Below are positions 14,007-45,213 of a stretch of DNA of 64,000 bases, in pieces. Source of the stretch: a virus. The stretch lies in the IMG/VR virus record IMGVR_UViG_3300027899_000008. One strand, 5' to 3'. The first letter of the stretch is position 1; the number at the start of each line of letters is the position of its first letter. The notes beneath the pieces were generated by a model. It made no database searches. It worked only from the letters and a program-made list of their open reading frames with translations, and was not told the origin of the DNA. Both the position numbers and the translations under genes were made by a program.

Positions 14007-14012
14007 GTCATT

Positions 14013-16340: not shown

Positions 16341-16373
16341 TTGGGAATAGCTTAACACCTATTCCCAATTTTT
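16341..16373 (+). terminator. Intrinsic terminator
   Basis: TTGGGAATAG...CTATTCCCAA then T-tract. Confidence 0.65.
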
Positions 16374-16517
16374 AAAACCAATTAATGATATAATGCTATT
16401 TAATTCATTAAATTTGGAATGAAAAGTCCGATAATAATAATATTATCGGACTTTTTCATCAACAAAAATGTTGATAGTATTTGTTGATAGTAGCACAGCT
16501 CTGAGTCTAACCGCTAT

Positions 16518-19718: not shown

Positions 19719-21713
19719 ATGAATAAAAGAGAATACCTAGCAAATCTTCAAAGTCTATCCAATAAGAATAAACTCAATGAGTTTTCTCTTGCTGATGCTA
19801 TGGGTCTAATTGGTATAGGTAATTCTCCTACAGATCCCAGTGACAAAATTAATAAAAGAAAGAAAGAATTAGAAGCAAAAGGTGCTCCAACATCATTTGA
19901 AGCACCTACACCAAATACTGAACCAACAACATCAGTCAACACTTCAAAGACTGCCAGTGATGGTGGTGTTATCAATGTAGCTGGTGCTAAAGGAGATGGA
20001 GAATCAAATCAAAAAGCATTAAAAGCTGGTCTAGATAATATCAACAGACAGCGTCAAGCTGGTGAGATATCCGCAAAAGACGCAGCTGATTACAGGGCTC
20101 AATTATCAGATAGAGCAGGAGCAGCAATTGGAGAAGTAGAACAACAAGAAAAAGAATCAGCAGTAGAAAAAGGACTCGACCGAGTAGCAGATGTTGCTGA
20201 ATTCATTCCTGGTGCGGGACAGGGAGTTGCTGCGCTTCATGCTTTATCATACGGAGCAAGAGGAGCAATGTATGGTGATGAGGATGGAAAATATGCTAAA
20301 GGTGCTGTTCAAAGTGGAATAAATGCTGTTCTACCCTCTGTGCTTGGCGCAGCAGGAAAAGTTGCTACCAAGGGACTTGGTCTTGCGGCCGCTGGTGCTG
20401 GAAAAGTAGCACCAACAGCAGTAGGAAAAGTAGCACAAGCAGCAACAGCAGTAGGAGAAAAATTAGCTGGTGCGGGAACATCAGTTGGTGGAGCAGTAGC
20501 AGGAGCAGCAGAAAAGGTAATTGGAACAAACGCAACAGCATTGGGAGCAGCTGCATTAAAAGCACCAGGTAATGCTGTTGGAAGTATGGCGGGTGCGTAT
20601 GGTGGGTATGAGGCAGCAAAAGAAGCAGATTTGGGGTTGGTAGGAACAGCAGCGGCTGTTATTGGTGGAGGAATTGTCGGTGGTAAGGCAGCAAATCTTG
20701 GAAATCAAGTCCCAGGACTTGGAAGAGTTATTCCTGATATTGAAGGATCAGTTGCTAGAAATCTAGGAAGAGTTGTAGGTGGAGCAGCAAGAGGAGTAAA
20801 TGATGCTGCTGGAAAAATACCTATGCCTTCCATGCCATCAATGCCCTCACTACCAGCGGGTGTTAGGAACAAGATAGGAGCGGTCGCTGTGGCTGCTTCT
20901 CAACTACTACCAGCTGGAGGTGCGCAAGCCGCATCTCGTATCGCAGTGCCACAAGCAGGAACAGCAATCTCAGCAGTAGAAAGAGGAGTCGTAAATGCGG
21001 AGAGAGTATCGGTAGCAGAGAGATTACCTGAGAGAGTGCCAGAGAGAGCGCCAGAGACTGCTCCGAGAGCAACAGAGAAAGTACCAGAGAGAGCGCCAGA
21101 GAATGCTCCAACATCATCAGAGAGAGCACCAGAGAGAGCATCTGCGTCTTCAGACATACAAGCAAAAGTAGAAGCAAATGCGAAACAAACACTAACAAAC
21201 AATTCAAAAGCAGCAGAAACAAATCCTGCTATTGATACAGCGCCTGCTCCTGCTAAAGCACCTGCTACTGATAAAGTTCCTGCTGCTGATAAAGCACCTG
21301 TTGCTGATAAAGCTCCTGCTGCTGATGAAGCTCCTGCTAGAAATCCTGTTGCCGATACAGAACCTGTTAGAGAACCTGTTAGAGAGACGAAACCTAGTAA
21401 ATCAACAAAGACCACAACAGAAAAAACTCCAGTTGCTACTCCATCCTCTGAGTTGTCCAGTGAACCAGTTGTAGGAGCTGATGATCCCTTTGCTGGAAAA
21501 CAATATGGATATGACAGAACAAACTTTAACAAAGTCACGGGTATAGTAGGAGACTCAACTCGTCGTAGCATAAACTCGACACCTCCATCACCACCAACAA
21601 GAAAACTTATTCCAAGACCTCAACTCGAAAACTTTAATATGAAGAAAACAATTAAAGATAAAATCAAAGCAAAATTAAATAATGCTAAAAATATTGGCAG
21701 AGATGGTTATTGA
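19719..21713 (+). CDS. Large Ala/Gly-rich protein with Pro-rich repeats; putative internal/ejection protein
   Basis: KLNE site; DVAEFIPGAGQG segment; glycine-zipper-like helices; PERAPE and APAADK repeats. Confidence 0.6.
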   Translation: MNKREYLANLQSLSNKNKLNEFSLADAMGLIGIGNSPTDPSDKINKRKKELEAKGAPTSFEAPTPNTEPTTSVNTSKTASDGGVINVAGAKGDGESNQKALKAGLDNINRQRQAGEISAKDAADYRAQLSDRAGAAIGEVEQQEKESAVEKGLDRVADVAEFIPGAGQGVAALHALSYGARGAMYGDEDGKYAKGAVQSGINAVLPSVLGAAGKVATKGLGLAAAGAGKVAPTAVGKVAQAATAVGEKLAGAGTSVGGAVAGAAEKVIGTNATALGAAALKAPGNAVGSMAGAYGGYEAAKEADLGLVGTAAAVIGGGIVGGKAANLGNQVPGLGRVIPDIEGSVARNLGRVVGGAARGVNDAAGKIPMPSMPSMPSLPAGVRNKIGAVAVAASQLLPAGGAQAASRIAVPQAGTAISAVERGVVNAERVSVAERLPERVPERAPETAPRATEKVPERAPENAPTSSERAPERASASSDIQAKVEANAKQTLTNNSKAAETNPAIDTAPAPAKAPATDKVPAADKAPVADKAPAADEAPARNPVADTEPVREPVRETKPSKSTKTTTEKTPVATPSSELSSEPVVGADDPFAGKQYGYDRTNFNKVTGIVGDSTRRSINSTPPSPPTRKLIPRPQLENFNMKKTIKDKIKAKLNNAKNIGRDGY

Positions 21714-22831: not shown

Positions 22832-25800
22832 ATGCCACATGAAACAAATGATATAGCCATAACATTCGGTAAGATGAATCCCCCAACTCTTGCGCATCAT
22901 GCTCTTGGGATGGCAGTGATGGATTACGCAAACAAGCGTGGCATGAGTCATACTATATTTGCGAGTAAACGACATCTTAAACCAACTAAAAGTGTAATTG
23001 CCTACGAAGGAACTCCTCTTAGTCCAGAGAAGAAATTAAAACACCTTCAAAGATATTTTGGTGAAGACGCAAATGTTCAACTTCATGTATCTCCATTTCA
23101 TGCAATTGATGAATTGCTAGAAAAAGGTCATCATAAAGTTCATGTAATGTTAGGTTCTGACAGAATAGATGATACTGGTACTGGACTTAAAGAAAAATAT
23201 GGAGATAGAGTAGAAATAGTTCCTTTCGGTGAAAAGCGTGAAAAAGGCGGAACAGGAATCAAAGCAGTTTCTAGCACCATCATGAGGGAACATGCTCGCA
23301 ACAACAACTTTGCCAAATTCAAGGAATTGGTTCCTCCCCATGTTCCAGAAGAACACGCAAGAGAATTATTCGACGATGTCCGTAAAGGACTTAAATTAGC
23401 AAAAATTAAACTCGACGAAGAAGTCAGCGCACAGACTAGAATGAAACTTTCTCGTATCGCCAAGAGAACCTCTAATAGAAGAGCAATGCTTCGCAAGGCT
23501 CGACGACGAAGGAAGAAGGGTCTTAAGGTGATGAAGAATAGAGCTAAACAAGATGTAAAGAATCAGTTTAGACATCGTTACTTTAAGGGTAAATGGTCTA
23601 AACTTGGATTCTCCAGTAGAGTAAACATTGACAGGAATGTCAATAAGAGAAAAAAGGTTGCTGACTCAATGATTCGTCGAATTCTTCCTGATGTCATCAA
23701 GGGAGAGAACCAAAGATTAAGAAATCTAACACGAAGAGAATCATATGATATAGATGATACAGATATCATTATGGAAGCAGCAAAGAGCATAGATGTTCGT
23801 AATGGTGCTACTCGCAGAAAACAAAAACAAAGAACGAAGGAATCACAGGAATCCTCTCAGGGAAATGTTGTTGGAAAATATGCTGTAGTCACTTCAAATA
23901 GTGGTAAGTATGCTGGTAGAAAAATGGTTGTGAATAAGAATTCATTCAATCCACAAACCATGGATGTTGTTGTATCACCAGATAAATTTGATTTTGCTGA
24001 TGGTCAACGAATATTGGATGACAAAGAATTCATTCAAACTGATTCGTCAATAGAGTTATATGGACCAGTCAAGGGAGAAGAATCAGCATCCTTAAGACGA
24101 GCAAAAGGAAATTCCAAAGCAGCAGAATCAGCAGGATTCAAGGATGTAAAGAAGGAAAAGAGTAGACAAGAAAAGGCAAGAGAATCAATAATGCCAAAGG
24201 AACCTGGTGAATGGGATTTCGTTCCAGGACAAATACAAGCAAAGAAGAAACAAGGAAAGAATAGCATAGATTTCACTTCACACTCAGCACAGGATGTTGA
24301 GATGGGAATGGCAGTAATTGGAAATATAAATTCTGGAATTTCTCCCGAAGAACAAGTAAAAAGGGGTCTTGTAAGTGAAGGAGACATGATGAAGGTGTTG
24401 AGAAATCCACACGCATCTTATCTTCCATCCATTCAGAAGATGGGTAAGAAATTAACTGAGCGATATGGTGCTGGAGTTACCTTCAAGGCAGTTGGAAGAA
24501 CCATGGAAGGAGTTGCTCTCAGTAAAGATGCTAAAAAATATGGCATCGTTGATAAGACACCAAAGACAGATATTATGGTAATGGATTCCAAGAGTGGAAA
24601 GGTCGTCGATCTTCTATCTGTGAAATGCGGTGAATCGCAAGCATCATCTGGAAACTGGCAGGATAATTACGCTGGTCTGATGTGGTCTGTCGATAAAGCA
24701 AAAGAAATGGGAATCAAAGTAACAAAGGGCGAGCAAAAAGCATTAGAGGAGTTTGCTGAATTCCTTTCCAGCAAGGAGTTCATAGGATCGCTTACTACAC
24801 AAGGAGGACCATCTGGACTCTATACGAGCACAGGTCCACTTGCGGGTAAGGATCCGCAGATATTAGCAAAACAAAAAGCAGCGCAAAAGGCAACTGGCAT
24901 AGCACAGGAATTTGGTAAAAAAGGTGGAAGTCTTGCTGCTCTGTATGCCTGGACGATGATGGGTGGATATCATAAGTTTGAAGAAGGAAGTAAGGCGATA
25001 CCAAATAAGATTCTTGCGGTAAGTCATGATGGATCGCAGATGAAGATATCGGATCTCAATTATAAACTGGCAGAGAAACTAGCACCAACACTAAAGACAG
25101 CTGCTAGATTCAAGGGTGGTGCAGCGGCATCAGTTCAAATTCAGGAAGAGCATGACAAGGCAAAGGAACAGGCAAAGAAGGAAGGTAGAACACTTTCTGA
25201 TCTTGAAGACAAGCGTCCATATAGAATCCGAATTGCTGTTAGAACAATCATTCCAGAACCAAACTTCAAGGATATAGTTGAAAATATCATACCTTTAACT
25301 CATATGAGTGGAATGGCAATGTTTAATCTTTTGGTTGAACAAGAGAATGAGAAAAAGGATCCAACAATACAAGAAAATCCAGAAAAGATAACTCAAGCGT
25401 TAGAGGAATTAAAGCAACTTGCTGAGCAGGATCCATTGGAATTGTATAAAATATTGGCAATCTTCTTTGACAATCAAGATTTATCCCCAAATATCAATTG
25501 GGTAGATTTACTTCCAAACGAAGGTAGCAGAATAAATCAGGTATTCATTAATGGCAGAGAACACAGGGTAGTGGTTCAGGAACCCTTCAACTATCCAACT
25601 CCAGAGGATGAAGTAAGTCCTCTAGGAGAAGAATATCTTGAGGAGAGAAACTATCGTAAGGAATATGATAATTATCACTCTAGTCCAGAACAAAGAAAAA
25701 ATAGAGGCAAGAGAGTAGCAGCAAGAAGATTAATGATAAAATTAGGAAGAGCGCGTAAAGGTGATGGTAAAGATGTAGACCACAAAGATAGCAACCCAAA

Positions 25801-25864
25801 AAATAATTCAGAATCTAATCTTCGAGTAAGAAACAAATCAGCAAATAGAGCAGACAATGATTAA
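22832..25864 (+). CDS. Multidomain protein: cytidylyltransferase-like (HIGH superfamily) + basic region + PD-(D/E)XK-like + C-terminal HNH
   Basis: TFGKMNPPTLAH, GSDR, SSTIMR; KTPKTDI...SVK; DVDHKDSNPKNN...NLR...SANR. Confidence 0.8.
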   Translation: MPHETNDIAITFGKMNPPTLAHHALGMAVMDYANKRGMSHTIFASKRHLKPTKSVIAYEGTPLSPEKKLKHLQRYFGEDANVQLHVSPFHAIDELLEKGHHKVHVMLGSDRIDDTGTGLKEKYGDRVEIVPFGEKREKGGTGIKAVSSTIMREHARNNNFAKFKELVPPHVPEEHARELFDDVRKGLKLAKIKLDEEVSAQTRMKLSRIAKRTSNRRAMLRKARRRRKKGLKVMKNRAKQDVKNQFRHRYFKGKWSKLGFSSRVNIDRNVNKRKKVADSMIRRILPDVIKGENQRLRNLTRRESYDIDDTDIIMEAAKSIDVRNGATRRKQKQRTKESQESSQGNVVGKYAVVTSNSGKYAGRKMVVNKNSFNPQTMDVVVSPDKFDFADGQRILDDKEFIQTDSSIELYGPVKGEESASLRRAKGNSKAAESAGFKDVKKEKSRQEKARESIMPKEPGEWDFVPGQIQAKKKQGKNSIDFTSHSAQDVEMGMAVIGNINSGISPEEQVKRGLVSEGDMMKVLRNPHASYLPSIQKMGKKLTERYGAGVTFKAVGRTMEGVALSKDAKKYGIVDKTPKTDIMVMDSKSGKVVDLLSVKCGESQASSGNWQDNYAGLMWSVDKAKEMGIKVTKGEQKALEEFAEFLSSKEFIGSLTTQGGPSGLYTSTGPLAGKDPQILAKQKAAQKATGIAQEFGKKGGSLAALYAWTMMGGYHKFEEGSKAIPNKILAVSHDGSQMKISDLNYKLAEKLAPTLKTAARFKGGAAASVQIQEEHDKAKEQAKKEGRTLSDLEDKRPYRIRIAVRTIIPEPNFKDIVENIIPLTHMSGMAMFNLLVEQENEKKDPTIQENPEKITQALEELKQLAEQDPLELYKILAIFFDNQDLSPNINWVDLLPNEGSRINQVFINGREHRVVVQEPFNYPTPEDEVSPLGEEYLEERNYRKEYDNYHSSPEQRKNRGKRVAARRLMIKLGRARKGDGKDVDHKDSNPKNNSESNLRVRNKSANRADND

Positions 25865-27883: not shown

Positions 27884-28254
27884 TGCAAAAATTGGATAGT
27901 GATAATTTTATATTGTATGCAATGAAGATGTATAGTGGTCCTTCTACAGGACTAGATGAATTCTATGAGGATTTAAATAGAATCAAATACATCAAAAGAT
28001 TGCTAATCAAATATAAAAAGAATAACGATCTGAAGGAAAGACTTATTCTTAATCACATCATAATTCTACAGAATGTACTTGGAGCAGAAGGTGCTACCAG
28101 AATTCTATTCTTCAAATTACATAAAGATTTGCATTCATATTTAAAGTCTTTTCTAGAATACTTGAATTATCTTCCAAGATATATTCCAGAAGTTGATGTA
28201 TATGTAATAAACACCGACCATCGTATAGACAAAATACTGAGAGACTTAAAATGA
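27883..28254 (+). CDS. Conserved T4-like phage protein
   Basis: NFILYAMKMY...EFYEDLNRIKYIKRL...LKERLILNHII, typical of cyano/pelagi-myoviruses. Confidence 0.75.
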   Translation: MQKLDSDNFILYAMKMYSGPSTGLDEFYEDLNRIKYIKRLLIKYKKNNDLKERLILNHIIILQNVLGAEGATRILFFKLHKDLHSYLKSFLEYLNYLPRYIPEVDVYVINTDHRIDKILRDLK

Positions 28255-29570
28255 TTCATATAATAGAACTAATAAGAAAAATTAATTTACATGAAGCAGC
28301 AGAAGGTTCAGAAGTCATCTCACATCTTCCCCATGTGGGAGAGACATTATATACAGGTGAAGGGGACTCTGGCATAGCACATCTATCTCAAGCGTTGAAG
28401 GTAATTCAAGGAAAACCTGTTGAAGGAACTCTTTCGCAAAAGGTGGATGGAAAGGTTTCCATTCTATTTGGTAAGGAGAATGGGAATGCCTATGTTCAAT
28501 ACAAGGGTAGTGGAGCTAAAAAACTATTTAGTGAAGATGAAATTCATCAACACATTACCGATACTGGCAAGCATTATCTTCGAGATTCATTCTTAGCTGG
28601 ATTTGAAGCAGCGCAACATTCTAAAATCGGAAAGAATCACACATATCAAGCTGACGCATTAGTTCACCATGACGACACTTCTGTGAAGGGAAATATACTT
28701 CACTACAATAAACCATCTCCAAGTGTAAAGGCTACACTTGCAGTACATTCACTATTAAATACAAAGACTCAGAAGAAACTAAAATCAATTCCAAATGTTG
28801 ATTTCTTGAATTCTGATACTCTTCATGTTCCTAATCTTTCAATGATTTCTAAAGAACACAATCCATCTTTAGAAGATGTAGAGGCAATTAAAAATCATAT
28901 TGCTTCTGCAAAGACCATTCACAAAGATAAAGATGTCGCAAGACTTTCAAAACAAATTTCTCAACATCGTGATGAGAAGAATCCAGATGGAAATGTTGGA
29001 CACAGACATCAGCACTTTGTTAGTTTCTCCAACAAGGTTCAAGCAGGAAGATTCAATAGAACATCAGATGATATGTTATCTTGGACAAAATCACAAATTG
29101 ATAATTCAAAGGGACTCGCAAAAACTAGATTAGAAGGTCATCATGCCTTTATTCAAGAACACAAAGAGGCAATTGATAAGTTATTTCAAATGCACAACCA
29201 TGTAGATGCTGCGAGAACTCATGTAATCAATGCGTTGAATTCCTCAAATCCAGAACTAGAACCAATAGATCCAGATACAGGCAAAGTCAATCACAACTAT
29301 AGTGAAGGATTTGTATCACATATCGAAGGACACGGAATGGTCAAGTTTGTTCCTACCGAATTCACCAGAAGAAATAATGAGAACAAAGATAGATTCAAAC
29401 AAGTCAAGGAAGAGATGGCAGTTGGTACTGGTGCAGGTCTTGCAGGACTTGGAGGACCAGAGGATGTAGCAGTTTCAGTTGCAGCGCAAAAGAAATACAC
29501 GAAAAAGGGTCCGATGAGAAGAAGGAAAATGGTAGAACAATTCCTAGATTTTAATAATCTCATGAAATAA
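28251..29570 (+). CDS. Conserved T4-like protein with a ligase/nucleotidyltransferase-like motif (DUF6267-like)
   Basis: HLPHVGE, KVDG (KxDG motif I), EGFV...VKFV. Confidence 0.65.
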   Translation: MIHIIELIRKINLHEAAEGSEVISHLPHVGETLYTGEGDSGIAHLSQALKVIQGKPVEGTLSQKVDGKVSILFGKENGNAYVQYKGSGAKKLFSEDEIHQHITDTGKHYLRDSFLAGFEAAQHSKIGKNHTYQADALVHHDDTSVKGNILHYNKPSPSVKATLAVHSLLNTKTQKKLKSIPNVDFLNSDTLHVPNLSMISKEHNPSLEDVEAIKNHIASAKTIHKDKDVARLSKQISQHRDEKNPDGNVGHRHQHFVSFSNKVQAGRFNRTSDDMLSWTKSQIDNSKGLAKTRLEGHHAFIQEHKEAIDKLFQMHNHVDAARTHVINALNSSNPELEPIDPDTGKVNHNYSEGFVSHIEGHGMVKFVPTEFTRRNNENKDRFKQVKEEMAVGTGAGLAGLGGPEDVAVSVAAQKKYTKKGPMRRRKMVEQFLDFNNLMK

Positions 29571-30098
29571 CTGCTTACAGATATAATAAGAATCAACTAT
29601 ATCAGTTACAGGACTCCCAACATTAGTTTTGTTGGGAGTTATCATTGTATGAAGGTCTATTCCAGTTTCAACAAAAAATGAATTGACCATAGTTTGCTTA
29701 TCAGCATTTCCCTTACCTGTTGCGAGTTTCTTAATTCTCGTAGGTTCCATTATGTCCACGGGAATCGATGCCTGGTATAGTTTATATTTTAATATACCTG
29801 TGTTCTCTGCGATATTGAAGACTCTACCAGTGGCATTGTATGCGTATCCTTCCAATGCTATCTGAGAGCATCCTAGACAGACTCGCATGACCCAATCGGA
29901 GATTGACCCATATCGCTCGCAATCTCCATCGTATGCGTTAAATGTCTCTCCATGAATATTTCCATGGAAGGTAGTAGCGTATTTCTTTGTATCGGTTAGA
30001 TAATAAAATGAACAATTTCCAAAATTAAACTTGTTCTTTGTGTTAAACACACAAATACAAGGTCCATTCAAAGAATAATCAATTCCTGCGATTATCAT
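29544..30098 (-). CDS. RuvC-like nuclease/resolvase
   Basis: MIIAGIDYS, IALEGYA, IKKLATGKGNADK, DIVDSY. Confidence 0.85.
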   Translation of the reverse strand: MIIAGIDYSLNGPCICVFNTKNKFNFGNCSFYYLTDTKKYATTFHGNIHGETFNAYDGDCERYGSISDWVMRVCLGCSQIALEGYAYNATGRVFNIAENTGILKYKLYQASIPVDIMEPTRIKKLATGKGNADKQTMVNSFFVETGIDLHTMITPNKTNVGSPVTDIVDSYYICKQLFHEIIKI

Positions 30099-30126
30099 AT
30101 ATAAGTATATATTGGAGATACAAATA

Positions 30127-30261
30127 ATGGATAGAAAACAACTAGATAGTTTCAAGGACGCAGTCAAGCAGATAACGATTTCCCCACCAAAGAAACCAGA
30201 ACCACCTAAGCAAGAGAATTCACCACCACCCACACCACCCAATAAACCAAAGGGTAAATGA
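30127..30261 (+). CDS. Small Pro/Lys-rich protein not in the ORF track
   Basis: MDRKQLDSFKDAVKQITISPPKKPEPPKQENSPPPTPPNKPKGK*; SD GGAG; followed by a terminator. Confidence 0.55.
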   Translation: MDRKQLDSFKDAVKQITISPPKKPEPPKQENSPPPTPPNKPKGK

Positions 30262-30285
30262 AAAAGGGGTCTTACGACCCCTTTT
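30261..30285. terminator. Bidirectional terminator
   Basis: AAAAGGGGTC-TTAC-GACCCCTTTT. Confidence 0.8.
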
Positions 30286-30296
30286 CTGTTTCCCTC

Positions 30297-31490
30297 TCAC
30301 GAATCAAACGGATGTTTCTCGTCAAAGTGTTTATCCGCAAAGTTCATCTTAAATTGTTCTAATCTCTTTACTGGTATCTTCAATCCAGAAACCAAAGTAT
30401 ACAGACGAAGAGTTGGTTTATCATCTTCGTAGATTCCTCTATGGAAAGTAGCATTTGGAACTAACGAAGATAGAGTATCAAATCCATAGGATAGACTATC
30501 CATCAGTCCTGCTGTATTCTCCATCAGACTCTTACCACCAACTGCGCAACATGCTGCGAAAGTCCCATTCGATATATCAATCTCTGCCAATAAAGTCTTA
30601 TCTATATTACTCTTGATTGACTTTGATATCTCAGTTTCATTTGCTGCTTTGGTTGCTGTCTTGGTGTCGTTGATATTCATCTTAGACACACCCATGACCA
30701 TTACACCACCGCATCTGAGAGTAGTGGCATAATCAGTTGGGTCGAATGAGGTATACTGCGATGGGTGTTTTGACAACACATTGAATATATGAAACAAACC
30801 AGATATGGTGCTATTGATTGTATTCCAGAATTCCTTCACGGTAAGATTGCTATACATCTTTTCGATTCTAGCGTTGTCTAGAATAACCAATGGAGATATT
30901 TCCTTCTTCTCCGCTTGTCCACCCACTTGCTTAAGGACTCTATAAGCGTTGTAGGAGACTTTGGGAGATGCTGCCTCTCCACGGGTGGGTAGGGACATTA
31001 CAACCCCTACACGCTCCTCTGGCTTGTCGTGGCCTATGAATTTCATATATTTCTTGGCAATATCAATCAATACCAACGATGAACCACTTCCACTACCACC
31101 GCCAGCACCAATACAAACCATAATATGGTCCACTTTAGTGCCATATACCTTTCGCATAAGGTCAAAAATTTCTTGCTTATACTTAAGTGTGGCATTTGCT
31201 CCCCGCTCCATATCTTTTCCAGCACCTTCTTCTCCGATGTCTAAAAGAAGTTTTTGAGTATCAGGAATATCAAGTAGTGTTAAATCTTGCTTTGATGTGT
31301 TAACAACAAGGCATTTCTTATACCCACGATCATAGAATGCTTTTGCGATTCTTCCACCACCCTGACCAGAACCAATCCATGCGAATACATGGGAACCACC
31401 GCTTTCATCCTTTACATCTTCGAATGTAGCGTCTGGTTCCTTGTAATCCTCAAGCTCCAAGTCTGGTATTTCTAAATCTGGTATATCCAT
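30297..31490 (-). CDS. Tubulin/FtsZ-superfamily GTPase (TubZ/CetZ-like)
   Basis: GSGQGGGRIA (T1), GAGKD (T3), GAGGGSGSG (tubulin signature), LDN, SFDPTDY (T7-like). Confidence 0.92.
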   Translation of the reverse strand: MDIPDLEIPDLELEDYKEPDATFEDVKDESGGSHVFAWIGSGQGGGRIAKAFYDRGYKKCLVVNTSKQDLTLLDIPDTQKLLLDIGEEGAGKDMERGANATLKYKQEIFDLMRKVYGTKVDHIMVCIGAGGGSGSGSSLVLIDIAKKYMKFIGHDKPEERVGVVMSLPTRGEAASPKVSYNAYRVLKQVGGQAEKKEISPLVILDNARIEKMYSNLTVKEFWNTINSTISGLFHIFNVLSKHPSQYTSFDPTDYATTLRCGGVMVMGVSKMNINDTKTATKAANETEISKSIKSNIDKTLLAEIDISNGTFAACCAVGGKSLMENTAGLMDSLSYGFDTLSSLVPNATFHRGIYEDDKPTLRLYTLVSGLKIPVKRLEQFKMNFADKHFDEKHPFDS

Positions 31491-31491
31491 T

Positions 31492-32235
31492 TTAACTCCA
31501 ATTATTTACTAATAATGCTAAGTCCTGCGAATTAACTATTCCATCGTTATTGATGTCATGTGGATTAGGTTTAAAGCTAGCAGCTCCCCAGTCTGCTAGA
31601 AGTTCACCCATATCCTGTGCATTTACCAATCCATCATTATTGAAATCACCTTGTAGGGCAAGTCCAACAATAGTATTGGTTAAAGACCCAGTAACGACAT
31701 TTCCGCCAACGCAGCAACCATATACAACACAGGAAGCTGGATATTGTGGATTCAGGGGCAGATTGTCGTATAGAACGACATCGGATCGACCTAATCCAAC
31801 TACTTTAAATATAAACTTACACATCTGCGCTGGTTCGGTGGTTACAATCCATTCATACCCAAGAACTCCATAGCAGTAAAACATTCCATTGCCGTCTTGG
31901 GGCGGAACGACTTCATTGCACCAAGTATAGTCGTTTGCAGGAAAGGTGGAATACCCTTGCATGACTCCCACATGGGAACCAACCAACGATACTCCAAGTA
32001 GTTGAAGTCTCGTAGGATCCCATCCAAAGGGAACATCGGCGACCACGAACCTCTGTGGGTTATTCTCCGCTGATACCATGAGTTGCACCTCGATGATATC
32101 GTCTATGGCTGTAGCTTGTTGTGGTGCTACCAGCGTAAGATTCAATTTAGCAGTTGGATCGTTTTGAGCAGATGCCATGCTAACCATGCATACCAAGAAG
32201 ATAAAGAATGATTTAATGTAGTGTTGTAGCTTCAT
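31492..32235 (-). CDS. Secreted protein with cohesin-like beta domain and C-terminal dockerin type I
   Basis: Signal peptide ending ASA|Q; GDFNNDGLVNAQD...LLADWG and DINNDGIVNSQDLALLVNNW. Confidence 0.8.
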   Translation of the reverse strand: MKLQHYIKSFFIFLVCMVSMASAQNDPTAKLNLTLVAPQQATAIDDIIEVQLMVSAENNPQRFVVADVPFGWDPTRLQLLGVSLVGSHVGVMQGYSTFPANDYTWCNEVVPPQDGNGMFYCYGVLGYEWIVTTEPAQMCKFIFKVVGLGRSDVVLYDNLPLNPQYPASCVVYGCCVGGNVVTGSLTNTIVGLALQGDFNNDGLVNAQDMGELLADWGAASFKPNPHDINNDGIVNSQDLALLVNNWS

Positions 32236-32620
32236 ATAATTTCCTTTTTTCTGATAAGATAGAGAAATCTTTTACTTTTTTGTCGCCAAAATACGCCCAA
32301 GCATAACCAGAAGTAACTAACAAATCATTTAAGCAGATATCATCCTTTCCATAGATATCCGCCAACATCCTACCATATTTATCATCCTTTGATGTTTTTA
32401 TTCTCATAATATTCTGACTAGCACACCACATGGCAACAAATTCCTTTACTTCTATGCCTAATTTGTGTTCTAGGGCATCTTTGGAATTCGTTTCTGGAGT
32501 ATCTATTCTGTTTAGCCTTACTCTTTGTTTAGTGAACATACTAAACCCAAGGTCAAAGACTATATCAAGTGTATCTCCGTCTACAATTCTAGTTATTTCT
32601 TTTATGGTATATTCATACAT
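32213..32620 (-). CDS. Thermonuclease (SNase-like)
   Basis: RIVDGDT, RLNRIDTPE, DKYGRMLA. Confidence 0.9.
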   Translation of the reverse strand: MYEYTIKEITRIVDGDTLDIVFDLGFSMFTKQRVRLNRIDTPETNSKDALEHKLGIEVKEFVAMWCASQNIMRIKTSKDDKYGRMLADIYGKDDICLNDLLVTSGYAWAYFGDKKVKDFSILSEKRKLYEATTLH

Positions 32621-33699
32621 TAATGATGTCTTTCCGAACAAACAAGAGCTCTCCATTGGTCTAATGCCTTATCATTGCTTCTAGACAATAATATCTTATT
32701 TAATTTATTAAGTCCAAGTTTAGCAAATTTTCTAGAAATGTTCATAACTTTCATTGCATCGTCTGATGAATTGGAATCAACTTTACTCATTGGGTTTATA
32801 AATTTAATTTCATCGGAACCAACTATTGGTATATTCATATGAATGAAATCAGCAGCAACTATATTAAAGGTTTCGCTATATGATACCTGAAGACCCATGT
32901 CCATCTGACCTACGATATTAAGAAAATCAACATGGGAATACCAAGGATGTTCTACCAATCTTGCATTGATATTTGATGTGTTGAAAAGATTTCTTATATT
33001 ATTAAGAATACCCATCATGGAACCATTTTTACCATTTTGTGTTTCATGTGGACTAACATTGATATGAACTACGATTGGTCGATCAATGACTGATGCATAT
33101 TGTATAGCCCACAATACCTGTTGAAGATGATTCTTCAATGGTCGCAATGCTCCAAAGATACCAATATGAAATTCTTTTGCGTTCGTTCTATAATTTGGAA
33201 TCTCTATAGATGGAGTTAAATCTGGATTAGGATAATATAGATTTGGAGAATACGATACAAATTTTCCACCAAACATATGCTTTAGATTCTTATAAAACTC
33301 TTCGCTATTTGCGCTAAGATTTATCTTGATTCCTTGTTCTCTGAGTTTCATATATTCGGTCAACCATTCAATAGCAATTGATTCTGTTGCGATGAATGGA
33401 GATTTGGAATGTAAACGAATATGCCATTCCACTTTTGGATGTAATGCTGATAGTATCTTGAATTTCTCTGGAACTACCCACAGAGCTTCGATGTAGACAT
33501 CGGTTGGTTTGAATCTAGCAACTTCACGATCAATGTCATTATTATCAACAACCTCTACTACTTCTGTTTCTATATGTATTTCATTAAGTTTTCTAGCAAC
33601 AAAATCGCAAGAGTTATATAATCCATATGCCTTTGTTATTTGCCCATATGCGTATCTTTGCTTTATTATGAAAAGAATTCTCTTATGGTTTGATGACAT
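32620..33699 (-). CDS. Glycosyltransferase (GT-B, GT4-like)
   Basis: IGIFGALRPLKN and VSYSETFNIVAAD. Confidence 0.75.
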   Translation of the reverse strand: MSSNHKRILFIIKQRYAYGQITKAYGLYNSCDFVARKLNEIHIETEVVEVVDNNDIDREVARFKPTDVYIEALWVVPEKFKILSALHPKVEWHIRLHSKSPFIATESIAIEWLTEYMKLREQGIKINLSANSEEFYKNLKHMFGGKFVSYSPNLYYPNPDLTPSIEIPNYRTNAKEFHIGIFGALRPLKNHLQQVLWAIQYASVIDRPIVVHINVSPHETQNGKNGSMMGILNNIRNLFNTSNINARLVEHPWYSHVDFLNIVGQMDMGLQVSYSETFNIVAADFIHMNIPIVGSDEIKFINPMSKVDSNSSDDAMKVMNISRKFAKLGLNKLNKILLSRSNDKALDQWRALVCSERHH

Positions 33700-33732
33700 T
33701 TATATACCTTTTTAAGTTATATTAGTATGTAT

Positions 33733-37630: not shown

Positions 37631-38344
37631 TTACTCCTTAGTTAAAACATACCAAGATTCGGGAAAAAGAGGTTCAATTATCGTATGTAATGCTTTAGCA
37701 TACTCTCTAACTTCCCATTGTGCGTGTGAATCAGATCGTTGACTATAGACCCTTGCATACGCAGCAAGCGATCCAGTCCACCACCATTCGGTATGTGTCC
37801 CCTGCGGCAGAACAAATCTTGCCTGTTCTGGAGCGACACCTTTATCTATAAGAGAATTATAGACTTCCAAACAACGATCAACTGCGTCTTTATATGTTCG
37901 TTCAAATTTGGTTTTAGTCTCCACATCGGTTATAAAATCCTCAGAACCTTGCTTCACACTTCCAATGGATTTACCTCTCCAAAATGGTTGATAAATGTCT
38001 GGAACATATGAAACATATCGTCGTGAAATTTCATTCTCTACAAATCCAACCTTGTGCTTGAAAAGTTGTGTGCGAATTGAAATCGGTGCTTTGATTCGCA
38101 ATGTAATTTGCGGATGTGCGAACGGAGTCCAATGATTGTGTTCTGCTAGATAGCGAATCAATTTGAAATCCTTATCTGATAATTTTTTATCCTTTATATG
38201 GCCAGAAAAATGTTGTTCACCTTCCCATGAACTTTCTTTGTTAAAGGATACTCTTGCTGCATTTACAATGGTAAGATCCGAACCCATATGGTCCACATAT
38301 TCAACAAATCCGGAATCGAGAACATTAACTCTTTGATTGATCAT
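37631..38344 (-). CDS. thyX: FAD-dependent thymidylate synthase
   Basis: IVNAARVS, HWTPF, QLFKH...NEISRRY, EQARFVLP, HAQWEVR. Confidence 0.93.
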   Translation of the reverse strand: MINQRVNVLDSGFVEYVDHMGSDLTIVNAARVSFNKESSWEGEQHFSGHIKDKKLSDKDFKLIRYLAEHNHWTPFAHPQITLRIKAPISIRTQLFKHKVGFVENEISRRYVSYVPDIYQPFWRGKSIGSVKQGSEDFITDVETKTKFERTYKDAVDRCLEVYNSLIDKGVAPEQARFVLPQGTHTEWWWTGSLAAYARVYSQRSDSHAQWEVREYAKALHTIIEPLFPESWYVLTKE

Positions 38345-38855
38345 TATTAAACTCCTTTATGATACTGCTATCTTCTCCAAGATATTTTTTCATTTGCTCT
38401 AGTATGAATGCCAGAAACTTCTCTTCATCCTTGGCAAACTTACAAATGCCAACAATATTCATCCAATCATCCTCATCGAATGTATTGTATTGTAATTCTC
38501 TACAATGTTGAATTAAATTCTTGATATAACTTTGAATACCAAGAATATCATCTTTCGATGTGTTTTTATTCTTCATCCACAATATAATTCCTTCTTCCTC
38601 ATGGTCAAAGGTAGAAATGAAGGCATTATATGATGCTTGTATCTTAGTGAGAAGAATATTCAATTCCTTTAAGAATTTCTTATTATCTTCATGCCAATAA
38701 TCAAATGTCAAACCATCGACCTTAGTATAGGTGCGAGCATAATCTATTGCTCTGAAAAACATAGCAGAATCACTTTCGCGAACATATTCCGCAAACTTAA
38801 AATGAAATTCTGCAATGCCAACCAACAGAGTATAATCTTTTTTTGGAATCTTCAT
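38325..38855 (-). CDS. Hypothetical protein
   Basis: ORF track; coupled within the operon. Confidence 0.6.
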   Translation of the reverse strand: MKIPKKDYTLLVGIAEFHFKFAEYVRESDSAMFFRAIDYARTYTKVDGLTFDYWHEDNKKFLKELNILLTKIQASYNAFISTFDHEEEGIILWMKNKNTSKDDILGIQSYIKNLIQHCRELQYNTFDEDDWMNIVGICKFAKDEEKFLAFILEQMKKYLGEDSSIIKEFNNDQSKS

Positions 38856-39841
38856 TTACATTTTCTCCATGTATTATACACTAACATCGCTGATGCGCCT
38901 GTGTATGTGTGCTGACTGATTGTATCACAAACATCGACTCCATTCAAGACCATATCATTTATATCTTTATCTTTGATATGTGATGGAAAAATACAAACCT
39001 TTTCTCCAGAATCAATCAACTCCTTGAGCACCGCAGTTACCGCTGTGCTTCTAGGTTCATTGTCTACAATATAAACAAGATTCTCTGTTGGAAACCTGTT
39101 TCTAATTTCTAGAAAATTTCCTATGCCTAAGCAAGCAATCGCATTGGGTAGAAAGAGGCTGTCGATTGGTCCCTCCACAACAAAGATTGTCTTGCTTCTG
39201 TCGATATCTCCAAGACCATGAATTAACTTAACAGATTCATCTCGTCGAAGAGTAATATACTTTGGTTGTGAATTTCCAAATGCCCTTCCTTGCACACCAA
39301 TTATTTTACCATGCACATCATACATGAATATAAGAATACGCTCATCGTCAAGAATATTATATTTCTCATTTACATTCTTGGCAAATTCAGCAAAATGCTT
39401 CGTATATCCAAAGCATTTCCACTTTTCCTTTGGAATCTTGCGATATTCTAGAAACTTAAATACCTTGTGGTCTGACGGCAGGTCATCCAATGATTCATAC
39501 TTCAATGCGCTGAATATCGTGGTATCAACACTAAAATCTGGTTTCACTTCCTCGATTCGCTTACCACCATCTAGAAATTTCTCAAGGCAATATTCCTTAA
39601 ACAACACTGGAGATACAATCTCCAAAAACTTATAGACATTGTGGGACGCGCCGCAGTTATGACACTTAAAGAAATAAGAATTATCGGATTGAAAGAAATA
39701 CCCTCTTGCTTTGTTTTTATTATTCTCAGAATCTCCACAAATAGGACATCTACAATTCGCAAGATTAATTTTCTTCCATTTGAATTTAGAAAGGGAAGAT
39801 GAAACTAAATTTATATATTTTTGATCGATGTAAGCGGACAT
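38852..39841 (-). CDS. gp61: DNA primase (T4 gp61-like)
   Basis: RCPICGDS...KARGY...CHNC zinc domain; VEGPIDSLF; DNEPR; KDINDM. Confidence 0.95.
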   Translation of the reverse strand: MSAYIDQKYINLVSSSLSKFKWKKINLANCRCPICGDSENNKNKARGYFFQSDNSYFFKCHNCGASHNVYKFLEIVSPVLFKEYCLEKFLDGGKRIEEVKPDFSVDTTIFSALKYESLDDLPSDHKVFKFLEYRKIPKEKWKCFGYTKHFAEFAKNVNEKYNILDDERILIFMYDVHGKIIGVQGRAFGNSQPKYITLRRDESVKLIHGLGDIDRSKTIFVVEGPIDSLFLPNAIACLGIGNFLEIRNRFPTENLVYIVDNEPRSTAVTAVLKELIDSGEKVCIFPSHIKDKDINDMVLNGVDVCDTISQHTYTGASAMLVYNTWRKCK

Positions 39842-41224
39842 TCAAAACTTCCAAGCATCGGTGTTTGGTTTCGTTCCTTTTGCAAATTGGTCTTTTACAG
39901 AATTATTAGATTGTTTTGGAACAATTGCTACATTATCCTCTTTCTTGATATCAAATATCTTCATCTTTGCTTTATTGATTCCAAGAATAAATTTACGATT
40001 TATGGTGGTATCGTTATATCGATTCTTAAGTTGCTTCACCATGATTTGATTCATCTCCGCCAGTTCATCTGTCGAAATCAAAGCAAACATGAAATCAGCA
40101 GTAGCAGGAAGACCGAAGGATTCCGATGTATCTTCAAGTCCAACATCACTATTAGAGAATCCTGATCGCGTGGTCTGTGTAGCACTAAAGATTGGAACAT
40201 TATATTCCACTGCCAATCCACGAAGTTCTTCCGCAATTGACTTGATGTAAGTATATGAATTAATATTGTTACCACTCTTCAGTCTAGCAGATGCGCAGAT
40301 ATTCAGATAATCAACAATGATGACATCTGGCTTGAACTTACGCTTTAGATGTAATTCATCTAGAAGAAATCTAAAATGATTTACATTTGCTGTTGCTGTT
40401 GGATATTCCTTGATGATGAGTTTACCTCTGACACCAGCACTGAGATTCTGCATCTTCTTCTCATATACGACTTTCGTAAGTTCACGAAGATTATCAAGAG
40501 TTACATCAAGAAGATTGGCATCAATACGCTCTGCGATTCTCTCCTCTGCCATCTCACAGGTGATATACAAAACATTCTGATGTTGCTTGAGACAATTTGC
40601 AGCATGATGGCAAAGGAACAATGATTTACCCACACCAGTTCCTGCCATCACGATGTTCAAGGTCTTCGCAGGAGTTCCACCATTCGTTATTTGATTAAAG
40701 AAATCAAGGTCAAAGGGAATTCTTTTCTCTGTCGTATGGTAGAATTCATATCGTCGCTCGTAATCCTCAATGTAATCATGTCCGATATGAACATCAAATG
40801 ATATTGCCAATGCCTTTGAGAGTATATCAGGAATCGAACCTTGTGATTGCTGTGTCTTTCCATCAATAATCTGAATGGATTCCATGATTGCGTTGTATAC
40901 TGCCTTTTCCTTACAGAAATTTTCAGTTTCAACCATCAACCATTCAGCATCACATTGTTCCTTGTTAGCAGAAATCTCTTCCACTATATTAGAAATGCGT
41001 TTCATCTCTTCTTGAGTGATGCTCTTATTCTTATCAAGAATGATATACAATGCTTCCTTTGTGGGAAGATTATTATACTTGATTATGAAATCGTGAATTG
41101 TTTCATATACAAATCGCAATGACCTATCATGAAAATACTCCCGCTGAATAAAGGGAGTTACTTTTCTTGAATATGTTTCGTTTTTGATGAGGTTGTGTAG
41201 GATAATATTTTCTATATCAGTCAT
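39842..41224 (-). CDS. gp41: Replicative helicase (T4 gp41-like)
   Basis: AGTGVGKS, EMAEERIAERIDA, IVDYLNI, SATQTTR, SESFGLPATAD. Confidence 0.96.
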   Translation of the reverse strand: MTDIENIILHNLIKNETYSRKVTPFIQREYFHDRSLRFVYETIHDFIIKYNNLPTKEALYIILDKNKSITQEEMKRISNIVEEISANKEQCDAEWLMVETENFCKEKAVYNAIMESIQIIDGKTQQSQGSIPDILSKALAISFDVHIGHDYIEDYERRYEFYHTTEKRIPFDLDFFNQITNGGTPAKTLNIVMAGTGVGKSLFLCHHAANCLKQHQNVLYITCEMAEERIAERIDANLLDVTLDNLRELTKVVYEKKMQNLSAGVRGKLIIKEYPTATANVNHFRFLLDELHLKRKFKPDVIIVDYLNICASARLKSGNNINSYTYIKSIAEELRGLAVEYNVPIFSATQTTRSGFSNSDVGLEDTSESFGLPATADFMFALISTDELAEMNQIMVKQLKNRYNDTTINRKFILGINKAKMKIFDIKKEDNVAIVPKQSNNSVKDQFAKGTKPNTDAWKF

Positions 41225-41433
41225 TTTTGCTCTAGTTCATCGACTCTATGCTTTAATCGTTTTATCTCGTCTGAACCTTGTTGTAGAATATCTTGTATTT
41301 CTCTCCAAAAGGTAAAAACCTGACACAATGAAGCAGCGTTCATCCGTTCTTCAATAGGTTTATTCTCACATCGTGATATCACAAACGGATTATTAAGTTC
41401 ACTGACAACATCATAGATGGGGTTTTCATCCAT
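41221..41433 (-). CDS. Hypothetical protein
   Basis: ORF track; overlaps both neighbours. Confidence 0.55.
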   Translation of the reverse strand: MDENPIYDVVSELNNPFVISRCENKPIEERMNAASLCQVFTFWREIQDILQQGSDEIKRLKHRVDELEQK

Positions 41434-42469: not shown

Positions 42470-42479
42470 AATATTCCTT

Positions 42480-45185: not shown

Positions 45186-45213
45186 ATTATAGCAGAAAAC
45201 TTTACTTTGTCAA
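45186..45213 (-). promoter_or_regulatory. Sigma70-type promoter overlapping the gp43A stop
   Basis: TTGACA-N16-TATAAT-N6-ATG. Confidence 0.75.

What the first reader, a model, noticed from the sequence alone, without database searches (positions are those of the whole stretch)
30297..31490. Tubulin/FtsZ-family GTPase in a T4-like phage of a probable FtsZ-less host
All the main tubulin/FtsZ motifs are present, with an acidic N-terminal extension. Characterised phage tubulins come from phiKZ-like jumbo phages (PhuZ) and the c-st plasmid prophage (TubZ), not from gp43/gp41/gp61-type phages as far as I know. Planctomycetes lack FtsZ, so if the host inference holds this is not a division mimic. 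Inference: a cytomotive filament that positions DNA or capsids, possibly using the repeats at 3030 or the TGTTGATAGTA sites.
Basis: partly seen in the sequence, partly recalled or inferred. Interest (0 to 1): 0.75.

Follow-up and report, generated by a model that had tools for sequence, protein, structure and literature searches.

The report
Stand-alone tubulin in T4-like lake phage
A T4-like freshwater phage carries an intact, strongly conserved tubulin/FtsZ-type GTPase from a large, uncharacterised family of aquatic-phage tubulins; the family's only cellular relatives found are chromosomal genes of FtsZ-less planctomycetes, so the phage probably builds its own filaments inside the host.

Summary
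ORF 30297-31490 (-) encodes a 397-aa tubulin/FtsZ-superfamily protein with intact T1, T4 and T7 loops and an acidic N-terminal arm. The AlphaFold model is confident (pLDDT 94). It is closest to plasmid TubZ/RepX and archaeal CetZ, then FtsZ, with PhuZ far behind. The gene sits in a T4-type replication module and is under strong purifying selection (dN/dS about 0.03).

It is not a member of TubZ, PhuZ, FtsZ or CetZ. It belongs to a separate family of hundreds of clusters, mostly on viral contigs from lakes and oceans. That family has a conserved N-terminal motif ([ILV]-P-x-[LI]-x-L-E) and no conserved neighbour such as TubR.

The only cellular relatives found (43-53% identical) are chromosomal genes in Planctomycetota-labelled MAGs. 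The five such genomes searched lack canonical FtsZ. These genes form one clade nested among viral lineages.

This gives partial support to the planctomycete-host idea. It undercuts the argument that the protein "cannot be a division mimic". The proposed link to the TGTTGATAGTA sites is not supported.

The most likely role is a cytomotive filament that organises phage DNA or assembly; this is inferred, not shown. First readers of this scan noted similar phage tubulins on other genomes.

The parts
30297..31490 (-). Tubulin/FtsZ-superfamily GTPase gene, 397 aa, of the TubZ/CetZ-like structural type
31398..31490 (-). Acidic N-terminal arm (aa 1-31, 13 D/E against 2 K), not aligned to any solved tubulin/FtsZ structure
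   Evidence: Sequence. Structural alignments start at model residue 29-34. pLDDT 79-88 over residues 1-30.
31443..31469 (-). Family-wide conserved N-terminal motif I-P-D-L-E-L-E-D-Y (aa 8-16; consensus [ILV]-P-x-[LI]-x-L-E-[DE]-[YF])
   Evidence: P9 is kept in 56 of 61, L13 in 50 of 61 and E14 in 41 of 61 phage, metagenome and planctomycete sequences. E14 is invariant in alignment A2.
31350..31373 (-). T1 phosphate-binding loop, G40-S-G-Q-G-G-G-R47
   Evidence: G40, G42 and G45 are invariant, Q43 is kept in 60 of 61.
31083..31109 (-). T4 tubulin signature loop, G128-A-G-G-G-S-G-S-G136
   Evidence: G130, G131 and G136 are invariant. Position 133 is T in 39 and S in 19 of 61.
30729..30746 (-). 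T7 (synergy) loop, F249-D-P-T-D253-Y, lined up by eye with FtsZ N-x-D-x-x-D; D253 is the predicted GTPase-activating residue
   Evidence: D250 and D253 are each kept in 60 of 61. The correspondence to FtsZ/tubulin T7 rests on established knowledge of the superfamily, not on a test here.
30261..30286 (-). Terminator-like hairpin with an A-tract before and a U-tract after, starting 11 nt after the stop codon
   Evidence: Sequence. RNA fold -25 kcal/mol, z -5.4, 0 of 200 shuffles fold as well. The simple consensus scan did not list it.
29544..30080 (-). Downstream neighbour: RuvC-like Holliday-junction resolvase; syntenic with the tubulin gene only in the freshwater clade
   Evidence: phrog_159, E 9.5e-22. 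Synteny.
31492..32235 (-). Upstream neighbour, one base away: secreted dockerin-type protein, an unlikely cytoplasmic partner
   Evidence: ORF with an N-terminal hydrophobic signal-like segment. Nearest ESM Atlas clusters carry Dockerin_1.
32213..32656 (-). Thermonuclease-type endonuclease, co-oriented with the tubulin gene
   Evidence: phrog_452, E 3.7e-41.

Best explanation
The gene encodes a functional tubulin/FtsZ-superfamily GTPase that polymerises head-to-tail. In such polymers the T7 loop of one subunit completes the GTP site of the next. The resulting dynamic (cytomotive) filaments form in the infected cell.

The gene stands alone, with its own terminator, at the edge of the T4-type replication and nucleotide-metabolism gene block. 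It has no TubR/tubC partner and no sign of a chimallin nucleus. The likeliest use is to organise or position the phage's replicating DNA pool or its assembly and packaging sites, working like PhuZ or TubZ without belonging to either family.

The conserved acidic N-terminal motif probably does the job that C-terminal tails do in FtsZ, TubZ and PhuZ: docking to the neighbouring subunit or to a cargo or anchor.

What is shown: fold, motifs, selection, family, context. What is inferred: polymerisation, the positioning role and the role of the N-terminal motif.
For: All nucleotide-binding loops and the T7 acidic residues are intact and nearly invariant across 61 family members.

dN/dS is 0.03-0.04.

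The family is large and mostly viral. There are 1126 representative clusters at E<=1e-3 and 199 at E<=1e-30. IMG/VR contigs carry it. Seven ESM Atlas cluster rows are shown, of 53-180 members each; six are 87-100% 'Viruses'.

Relatives carry homing-endonuclease inteins inside the T1 and T4 loops, which fits a conserved, needed gene.

The gene lies in the same orientation block as NrdJ, thymidylate synthase, primase, helicase, UvsX and gp43. It ends in a strong hairpin.

Metatranscriptome contigs from two studies lie on the gene at 95-100% identity. This is a weak hint of expression.

Established knowledge: PhuZ and TubZ filaments position phage or plasmid DNA (PMC4244570, PMC3678025, listed).
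Against: There is no biochemical or imaging evidence, and nothing identifies a cargo.

No conserved partner gene was found.

A T4-like lytic phage has no known need for a spindle.

The window protein itself does not reach the Pfam TubZ-like_C model; only relatives do.

RNA libraries may contain DNA, so expression is not shown.

Chromosomal homologues exist in planctomycetes, which leaves a host-directed role open.
Confidence: 0.5

Rival explanations
1. Host-cytoskeleton takeover. The phage protein co-assembles with, caps or replaces a host filament system, namely the chromosomal homologue found in some FtsZ-less Planctomycetota. By doing so it blocks, prolongs or redirects host division or cell organisation during infection.
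For: Cellular homologues at 43-53% identity, including the N-terminal motif region, lie in housekeeping neighbourhoods (gap-pgk-rpe ... accD-hisC-hisB-ispF-cysS-ruvC) of Planctomycetota-labelled MAGs. One is on a complete chromosome.

In five such genomes this family gives the only PF00091 matches, and FtsZ_C is not found, while it rings in 13 of 14 control genomes.

PMC6952346 states that Phycisphaerae divide by binary fission without FtsZ and that the driving protein is unknown.
Against: The host is not identified.

The cellular family is lineage-restricted: 0 of 300 other genomes in the phylum sample, against 26 of 151 in one order.

The phage clade is not nested in the cellular clade and is only about 50% identical to it. 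At that distance co-assembly is uncertain.

The function of the planctomycete protein is unknown.
Confidence: 0.2
2. TubZRC-type partition. The filament segregates the phage genome as an extrachromosomal element during a carrier or pseudolysogenic state. It would use a DNA-binding adaptor and a centromere located elsewhere in the genome, for example the perfect 21-bp x 4.7 array at 3030-3127.
For: The closest solved relatives are plasmid TubZ/RepX.

An iteron-like cluster of perfect tandem repeats exists at 2830-3154.

c-st TubZ is a precedent for a phage partition system (Oliva et al. 2012, PMC3356609, in the reference lists seen).
Against: There is no TubR-like small gene next to the gene, and no neighbour is conserved across the family.

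The C-terminal tail is short and variable, whereas TubZ uses a long tail to bind TubR.

The repeats are 27 kb away and I did not test whether they are conserved.

T4-like phages are typically strictly lytic (general knowledge).
Confidence: 0.1
3. The protein is a GTPase that does not polymerise, for example a regulatory switch, or its filament serves an unrelated role such as a scaffold for a surface or glycan module or defence evasion.
For: It is co-transcribed in orientation with secreted and surface-type genes: dockerin protein, glycosyltransferase, OM barrel. One relative is fused to a GT1 glycosyltransferase domain (P0268).
Against: Conservation of the T7 loop (D250, D253) is only explained by subunit-subunit GTPase activation.

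The surface-gene neighbours are not conserved outside the closest relatives.
Confidence: 0.07

Closest known systems
TubZ / RepX of Bacillus plasmids pXO1 and pBtoxis (type III partition; PDB 4ei7, 2xka)
   Different: Identity is only about 20%. The family forms a separate clade in both trees. There is no tubR or tubC next to the gene. The C-terminal tail is short and variable. There is a conserved acidic N-terminal motif that RepX lacks: the profile match starts at position 28. The gene is on a T4-like phage, not a plasmid.
PhuZ of Chimalliviridae (201phi2-1 gp59, phiKZ gp39)
   Same: It is a phage-encoded tubulin-superfamily GTPase, so it presumably also forms a cytomotive filament in the infected cell.
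   Different: The relationship is very distant. The PhuZ PHROG scores E 0.045. Foldseek TM is about 0.5. PhuZ is not among the top 50 VIA matches. PhuZ's acidic assembly tail is C-terminal, whereas here the conserved acidic motif is N-terminal. No chimallin was found in the window or in related fragments, though that test is weak.
TubZ of Clostridium phage c-st (PDB 3v3t, 4xcq)
   Different: c-st TubZ works with TubR, tubS and TubY in a plasmid prophage. No such partners are present here. It lies on a long separate branch in the trees.
CetZ of Euryarchaeota (PDB 4b45, 4b46, 3zid)
   Different: There is no CetZ_C match. CetZ is an archaeal chromosomal cell-shape protein. CetZ was not included in my trees because no reference sequence could be fetched.
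Chromosomal TubZ-like proteins of Planctomycetota/Omnitrophota-labelled MAGs (found here, undescribed as far as I could search)
   Same: They belong to the same family: 43-53% identity over nearly the full length, including the N-terminal motif region. The loops are the same.
   Different: They are cellular genes in housekeeping synteny and often occur as tandem paralogues. The second copy may carry an AAA_lid_14 C-terminal domain. They form one clade distinct from the window's phage clade.
Bacillus phage G gp138 (putative FtsZ-like protein)
   Same: It is the only hit among 50,697 deposited phage records: 23% identity, E 2e-6.
   Different: It lies outside the family in the trees. It is uncharacterised and was not detected in the proteome (PMC12484599).

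Membership tests
Tubulin/FtsZ superfamily | Glycine-rich T1 and T4 (GGGTG[ST]G-type) nucleotide-binding loops | tested here: met
   GSGQGGGR and GAGGGSGSG are present. PF00091 scores 44.5 bits against a cut-off of 33. The glycines are invariant across the family.
Tubulin/FtsZ superfamily | T7 loop with an acidic residue that activates GTP hydrolysis in the next subunit | tested here: met
   In F-D250-P-T-D253-Y, both Asp residues are kept in 60 of 61 sequences.
Tubulin/FtsZ superfamily | Two-domain fold: a Rossmann-type GTPase domain, helix H7, and a C-terminal activation domain | tested here: met
Tubulin/FtsZ superfamily | GTP-dependent polymerisation | not testable with these tools
   This needs purified protein, with sedimentation, light scattering, EM and a GTPase assay.
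TubZ (type III plasmid/prophage partition) | Operon with a TubR DNA-binding adaptor and a tubC centromere of iterons directly upstream | tested here: not met
   The upstream gene is a 247-aa secreted dockerin-type protein and there is no small co-oriented ORF. No neighbour is conserved across the family.
TubZ (type III plasmid/prophage partition) | Long flexible C-terminal tail that binds TubR | tested here: not met
   Only about 13 residues follow the last helix (H374-384 of 397). This region is variable or absent in relatives.
TubZ (type III plasmid/prophage partition) | Pfam TubZ-like_C (PF22453) / TubZ_C (PF21493) C-terminal domain | tested here: inconclusive
   The window protein gives no hit at E<=1. 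Relatives hit it: P0105 scores 33.5 bits against a cut-off of 26, while P0060 scores 25.2 and P0100 scores 17.4, both below the cut-off. Structurally the C-terminal domain and helix align with TubZ.
TubZ (type III plasmid/prophage partition) | Groups with TubZ/RepX in a phylogeny | tested here: not met
   The family is a separate clade (SH-aLRT 97, 89). The reference branches are very long, so only the separation is firm, not the exact sister relation.
PhuZ (Chimalliviridae spindle tubulin) | Sequence membership in the PhuZ family | tested here: not met
   phrog_4733 scores E 0.045, 13.8 bits. Foldseek TM is about 0.5 to PhuZ of phage Noxifer.
PhuZ (Chimalliviridae spindle tubulin) | Co-occurrence with the chimallin nuclear-shell protein | tested here: inconclusive
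   phmmer with phiKZ gp054 found nothing in the window or in 39 viral loci, and nothing in four related viral records that are 31-47% complete. This single-sequence search is insensitive, and the whole genome is not held.
PhuZ (Chimalliviridae spindle tubulin) | Acidic C-terminal tail that mediates filament assembly | tested here: not met
   The C-terminus is short and not conserved. The conserved acidic motif is N-terminal.
Canonical FtsZ | FtsZ_C domain (PF12327) and a conserved C-terminal anchor peptide | tested here: not met
   There is no FtsZ_C hit at E<=1. The protein does not group with E. coli FtsZ.
CetZ | CetZ_C domain (PF21011) | tested here: not met
FtsZl1 (Makarova & Koonin 2010; Tubulin_2, PF13809) | N-terminal FtsZ-like domain followed by a coiled coil and a helical C-domain; Tubulin_2 above its cut-off | tested here: not met
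   PF13809 scores 18.7 bits against a cut-off of 27. The model shows a complete TubZ/FtsZ-type C-terminal domain instead. The FtsZl1 architecture is as described in PMC2875224.

The most novel reading that the evidence does not exclude
This family is a third, widespread lineage of viral tubulins, distinct from PhuZ and TubZ. T4-like phages would use it to build a chimallin-independent cytoskeleton in planctomycete hosts. One planctomycete lineage that lacks FtsZ would have captured and duplicated the phage gene as a chromosomal cytoskeletal, possibly division, protein. The phage and host filaments could then still interact through the shared N-terminal motif.
Probability: 0.15. Interest if true: 0.85.

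Novelty: new variant of a known kind. Interest (0 to 1): 0.62.

Why it matters
Phage tubulins have been studied almost only as PhuZ of nucleus-forming jumbo phages and as TubZ of one plasmid prophage. This family would show that ordinary T4-type phages, common in lakes and oceans, also carry their own cytoskeleton. It would work without a phage nucleus or a TubR adaptor, and its interaction motif sits at the opposite end of the protein from the tails used by FtsZ, TubZ and PhuZ.

The same family is the only tubulin/FtsZ-type gene found in five planctomycete or Omnitrophota MAG genomes that lack canonical FtsZ. Those cellular copies appear nested among viral lineages. That gives a concrete candidate to test for the long-open question of how FtsZ-less planctomycetes organise or divide their cells, and a possible case of a cell domesticating a viral cytoskeletal gene. 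It also offers a marker gene for finding phages of Planctomycetota.

Tried and rejected
1. PhuZ membership was rejected. The PHROG scores only E 0.045 and the structural match is poor.

2. TGTTGATAGTA sites as a centromere for this tubulin. The motif is real and enriched: 12 matches with at most one mismatch against 1.8 expected. All seven exact copies are on the + strand at 492-16492. Several lie just upstream of + strand ORFs, for example 13932 before the ORF that starts at 13989. None is near the gene. A promoter or operator is the more likely reading, and no link to the tubulin was found.

3. A TubR-like or other conserved partner. All-against-all comparison of the neighbourhoods found none outside the closest freshwater relatives.

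4. Chimallin. Nothing was found with phiKZ gp054. The unknown ORFs 19719-21713 and 28251-29570 have no PDB sequence match. All of these are weak negatives.

5. The 105-sequence alignment A1 was too diverse to scan genomes with, so the smaller A2 was used.

I therefore could not check the context of the basal metagenomic representatives (P0139, P0145, P0158). IMG/VR loci L125-L140 were used instead.

8. RNA contigs do not cover the RuvC-like gene or most of the neighbours. With contigs only, missing cover is not evidence of a transcript end.

9. The consensus terminator scan did not list the hairpin after the gene. Folding shows it clearly.

10. Placement of PhuZ and c-st TubZ. They fell inside the family in the first tree and outside it in the second. 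This is treated as a long-branch artefact, and no claim is made about it.

11. Host assignment. The dockerin neighbour's nearest ESM Atlas cluster is labelled Planctomycetota on only 5 records, which is too weak to use.
Full report
**Observation.** The minus-strand ORF 30297..31490 (ATG, 397 aa) is present as described. It passes the Pfam Tubulin/FtsZ GTPase model (PF00091, 44.5 bits against a cut-off of 33). Against PDB sequences its best match is the TubZ-type RepX of pXO1 (4ei7, E 2.4e-16). CetZ and FtsZ come next. The PhuZ PHROG matches only at E 0.045.

The three diagnostic loops are readable in the sequence: T1 (GSGQGGGR, aa 40-47), T4 (GAGGGSGSG, aa 128-136) and T7 (FDPTDY, aa 249-254). 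Residues 1-31 are strongly acidic, with 13 D/E and 2 K.

**Fold.** I built an alignment of 105 homologues (A1). An AlphaFold2 model made from it is confident: mean pLDDT 94.3 and pTM 0.91. Foldseek ranks B. cereus TubZ/RepX first (E 4e-23). B. thuringiensis TubZ, CetZ1/2 and FtsZ follow.

PhuZ is not in the top 50. In the viral structure library PhuZ aligns at TM about 0.5. The best viral hit there is an 'FtsZ cell division GTPase' of an uncultured Caudovirales phage. The family profile against PDB gives RepX 5.5e-47, CetZ and archaeal FtsZ about 1e-32, c-st TubZ 5.5e-29 and Bt TubZ 6e-25. No structural alignment covers residues 1-30.

**Phage context.** The window holds a T4-type replication module:
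- DnaB/gp41-like helicase, 39842-41224
- UvsX, 41426-42487
- gp43-type polymerase in two pieces, 42480-43634 and 45202-46683
- gp61-like primase, 38852-39841
- thymidylate synthase, 37631-38344

The tubulin gene lies in the same orientation block. Its upstream neighbours are a secreted dockerin-type protein (31492-32235, one base away) and a thermonuclease. Downstream lies a RuvC-like resolvase. A stable hairpin with a U-tract (-25 kcal/mol, z -5.4) starts 11 nt after the stop codon.

No whole genome is held for the window. Earlier notes of this scan describe the genome as a freshwater T4-like phage with an intein in its terminase gene.

**Relatives.** The family is large.
- The 5.8-billion-protein collection has 816 proteins at E<=1e-3 among the candidates scored. 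They run from 99% to about 50% identity and come from freshwater and marine (Tara) metagenomes, on contigs up to 168 kb.
- The exhaustive representative search finds 1126 clusters at E<=1e-3 and 199 at E<=1e-30.
- IMG/VR viral contigs carry members from 92% down to 30% identity.
- The ESM Atlas shows seven cluster rows of 53-180 members. Six of them are 87-100% 'Viruses, Uroviricota'.
- Among 50,697 deposited phage genomes, only Bacillus phage G gp138 matches (23% identity, E 2e-6).

The close freshwater relatives (80-92% identity) keep the T4-like neighbours: NrdJ, ThyX, primase, helicase, UvsX, RuvC-like. In one subgroup the tubulin gene is inverted relative to them. A marine relative's 86-kb record carries a Gp23-type major capsid protein (E 2.2e-87). 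A freshwater relative's record carries an unsplit gp43. CheckV completeness values of 31-47% for records of 53-92 kb imply genomes of roughly 145-215 kb (my arithmetic from the figures).

Beyond the closest clade no neighbour is shared. So the gene travels alone and has no conserved TubR-like partner.

**Constraint and conserved features.** dN/dS against the two closest relatives is 0.033-0.037, with dS of 1.5-1.9. In 61 family members the loop glycines, P168, N181 and D205 are invariant. D250 and D253 are each kept in 60 of 61.

A short N-terminal motif (I-P-D-L-E-L-E-D-Y here) is conserved family-wide: P9 in 56 of 61 and L13 in 50 of 61. It is preceded by a variable low-complexity leader. 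The C-terminal tail is short and variable. This is the reverse of FtsZ, TubZ and PhuZ, where the interaction peptide is C-terminal (established knowledge of those families).

Several relatives carry LAGLIDADG-type inteins inside the T1 or T4 loop.

**Cellular relatives.** A scan of one genome per prokaryote species found 85 relatives, of which the best 80 loci were kept, at 43-53% identity. By record title, 74 are Planctomycetota, 4 Omnitrophota, 1 Aegiribacteria and 1 unnamed.

These are chromosomal genes, not phage contigs.
- One set lies between gap-pgk-rpe and accD-hisC-hisB-ispF-cysS-ruvC.
- Other sets lie in different housekeeping contexts.
- One locus is on a complete 2.96-Mb chromosome.

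Twenty loci carry a second, tandem paralogue. One such paralogue, L053:7236-9032, carries an AAA_lid_14 C-terminal domain.

In five of these genomes the only PF00091 matches belong to this family. FtsZ_C (PF12327) is not found in any of them, while it rings in 13 of 14 control genomes.

The gene is lineage-restricted. It was not found in 300 other genomes sampled from the same phylum, but it was found in 26 of 151 genomes of one order. I found no paper describing it. It differs from the FtsZl1/Tubulin_2 family, whose architecture is different (PMC2875224; PF13809 is below its cut-off).

**Phylogeny.** I built two quick IQ-TREE trees (LG+C20+F+G4 by PMSF, SH-aLRT support). They included the window's clade, viral contigs, unlabelled metagenomic representatives and the planctomycete proteins. 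The references, fetched from annotated records, were RepX, a Paenibacillus plasmid TubZ-like protein, Bt TubZ, c-st TubZ, two PhuZ, phage G gp138 and E. coli FtsZ.

Results:
- The family is a clade apart from the plasmid TubZ/RepX-type proteins, phage G gp138 and FtsZ in both trees, with support 97 and 89. The position of PhuZ and c-st TubZ is covered under the caveats below.
- The window groups with freshwater T4-like contigs (99), then with a marine clade (99).
- The planctomycete proteins form a single clade (100). It is nested among viral and metagenomic lineages, and a phage-like 168-kb contig (L001) is its sister (97).

With the root on the references, this favours one transfer from a virus into a planctomycete lineage.

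Caveats. The reference branches are very long. PhuZ and c-st TubZ moved between the two trees. CetZ could not be included. The searches were 'quick', not 'careful'. I therefore treat the direction of transfer as suggested, not shown.

TGTTGATAGTA is enriched: 12 matches with at most one mismatch against 1.8 expected. All seven exact copies are on the + strand between 492 and 16492, some directly upstream of + strand ORFs, and none is near the tubulin gene. A perfect 21-bp x 4.7 array at 3030-3127 sits in a cluster of five short tandem arrays at 2830-3154. It is 27 kb from the gene, and I did not test whether it is conserved.

**Occurrence and expression.** Near-identical DNA is present in freshwater and lake metagenome runs from many studies between 2017 and 2025. 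Metatranscriptome contigs from two studies lie on the tubulin gene at 95-100% identity. Because these are contigs, and RNA libraries can hold DNA, this is only a weak hint of expression.

**Interpretation.** The shown facts are an intact, constrained, filament-type tubulin fold; a stand-alone gene in a T4-type replication region; a large viral family; and no TubR or chimallin. From these I infer a polymerising GTPase that forms cytomotive filaments. Those filaments would organise phage DNA or assembly sites, with the N-terminal motif acting as the docking element (confidence 0.5).

The main rival is interference with, or co-assembly with, a host filament of the same family (0.2). The chromosomal homologues in FtsZ-less planctomycetes make this plausible. 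A TubZRC-like partition role is less likely (0.1), and a non-polymerising or unrelated role less likely still (0.07).

Host assignment to Planctomycetota is plausible but unproven.

**Literature.** Within the library I could search, phage tubulins are described as PhuZ of Chimalliviridae and TubZ of c-st. [quoted passage not shown] Nothing I found describes a tubulin in T4-like phages or a TubZ-like protein in planctomycetes. Automatic annotations of relatives do exist, for example 'cell division GTPase FtsZ' and Pfam TubZ-like_C.

First readers of this scan noted similar phage tubulins on other genomes. Those notes had no follow-up.

**Verdict.** The finding is real and well conserved. It is a new variant of a known kind: a phage cytomotive tubulin from a family separate from PhuZ and TubZ. 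Its unexpected link to FtsZ-less planctomycetes deserves follow-up in its own right.

Noticed in passing
L024-L103 (e.g. L055:5299-7128, L067:5944-7128, L053:5995-7131 and 7236-9032): A chromosomal TubZ-like tubulin family occurs in Planctomycetota-labelled MAGs (74 of 80 loci), with 4 Omnitrophota-labelled. It is 43-53% identical to the phage protein. It sits in housekeeping synteny (gap-pgk-rpe / accD-hisC-hisB-ispF-cysS-ruvC). It is often present as tandem paralogues, and one second copy carries an AAA_lid_14 domain. In five such genomes it gives the only PF00091 matches, and FtsZ_C is not found. It was found in 26 of 151 genomes of one order and in 0 of 300 others sampled from the phylum.
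   Followed up: partly
Proteins P0140, P0167, P0188, P0264, P0270, P0273 (relatives, 800-980 aa): These relatives have inteins inserted in the tubulin gene at the T1 or T4 nucleotide-binding loops. Five of the six also match a LAGLIDADG homing-endonuclease domain; P0264 matches the intein splicing domain only.
   Followed up: partly
Protein P0268 (812 aa relative): A GT1 glycosyltransferase domain is fused N-terminally to a tubulin domain of this family. In the window, a glycosyltransferase-like gene lies 1.1 kb upstream of the tubulin gene.
   Followed up: no
window 2830-3154: Five short tandem-repeat arrays cluster within 330 bp. They include a perfect 21-bp x 4.7 array (3030-3127) and two adjacent TGTTGATAGTA copies. 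The region looks iteron-like and could be an origin or a regulatory hub. It overlaps a weak TTG-start ORF (2855-3250).
   Followed up: no
window 492, 1678, 2830, 2843, 13932, 16469, 16482 (+ strand): There are seven exact copies of TGTTGATAGTA, all on the + strand in the left 17 kb and twice as adjacent pairs. The motif has 12 matches with at most one mismatch against 1.8 expected. This is probably a promoter or operator motif of the + strand gene block.
   Followed up: partly
window 22832-25864 (+): A 1010-aa ORF has an N-terminal cytidyltransferase-like region (phrog_3041, E 2e-25) and a C-terminal HNH-endonuclease-like end (phrog_4590 / phrog_4578).
   Followed up: no
window 29500-33700: Near-identical DNA recurs in freshwater and lake metagenome runs from many studies (2017-2025). 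Metatranscriptome contigs from two studies lie on the tubulin gene and on the dockerin gene.
   Followed up: partly
L001 (NCBI GCA_004196315.1, 168.6-kb contig): This phage-like contig, with capsid-like and beta-helix fibre genes, was deposited inside a MAG assembly. Its tubulin is the sister of the planctomycete chromosomal clade. A 76-aa ORF overlaps the tubulin start and could be a small partner. The organism of the assembly could not be looked up.
   Followed up: no
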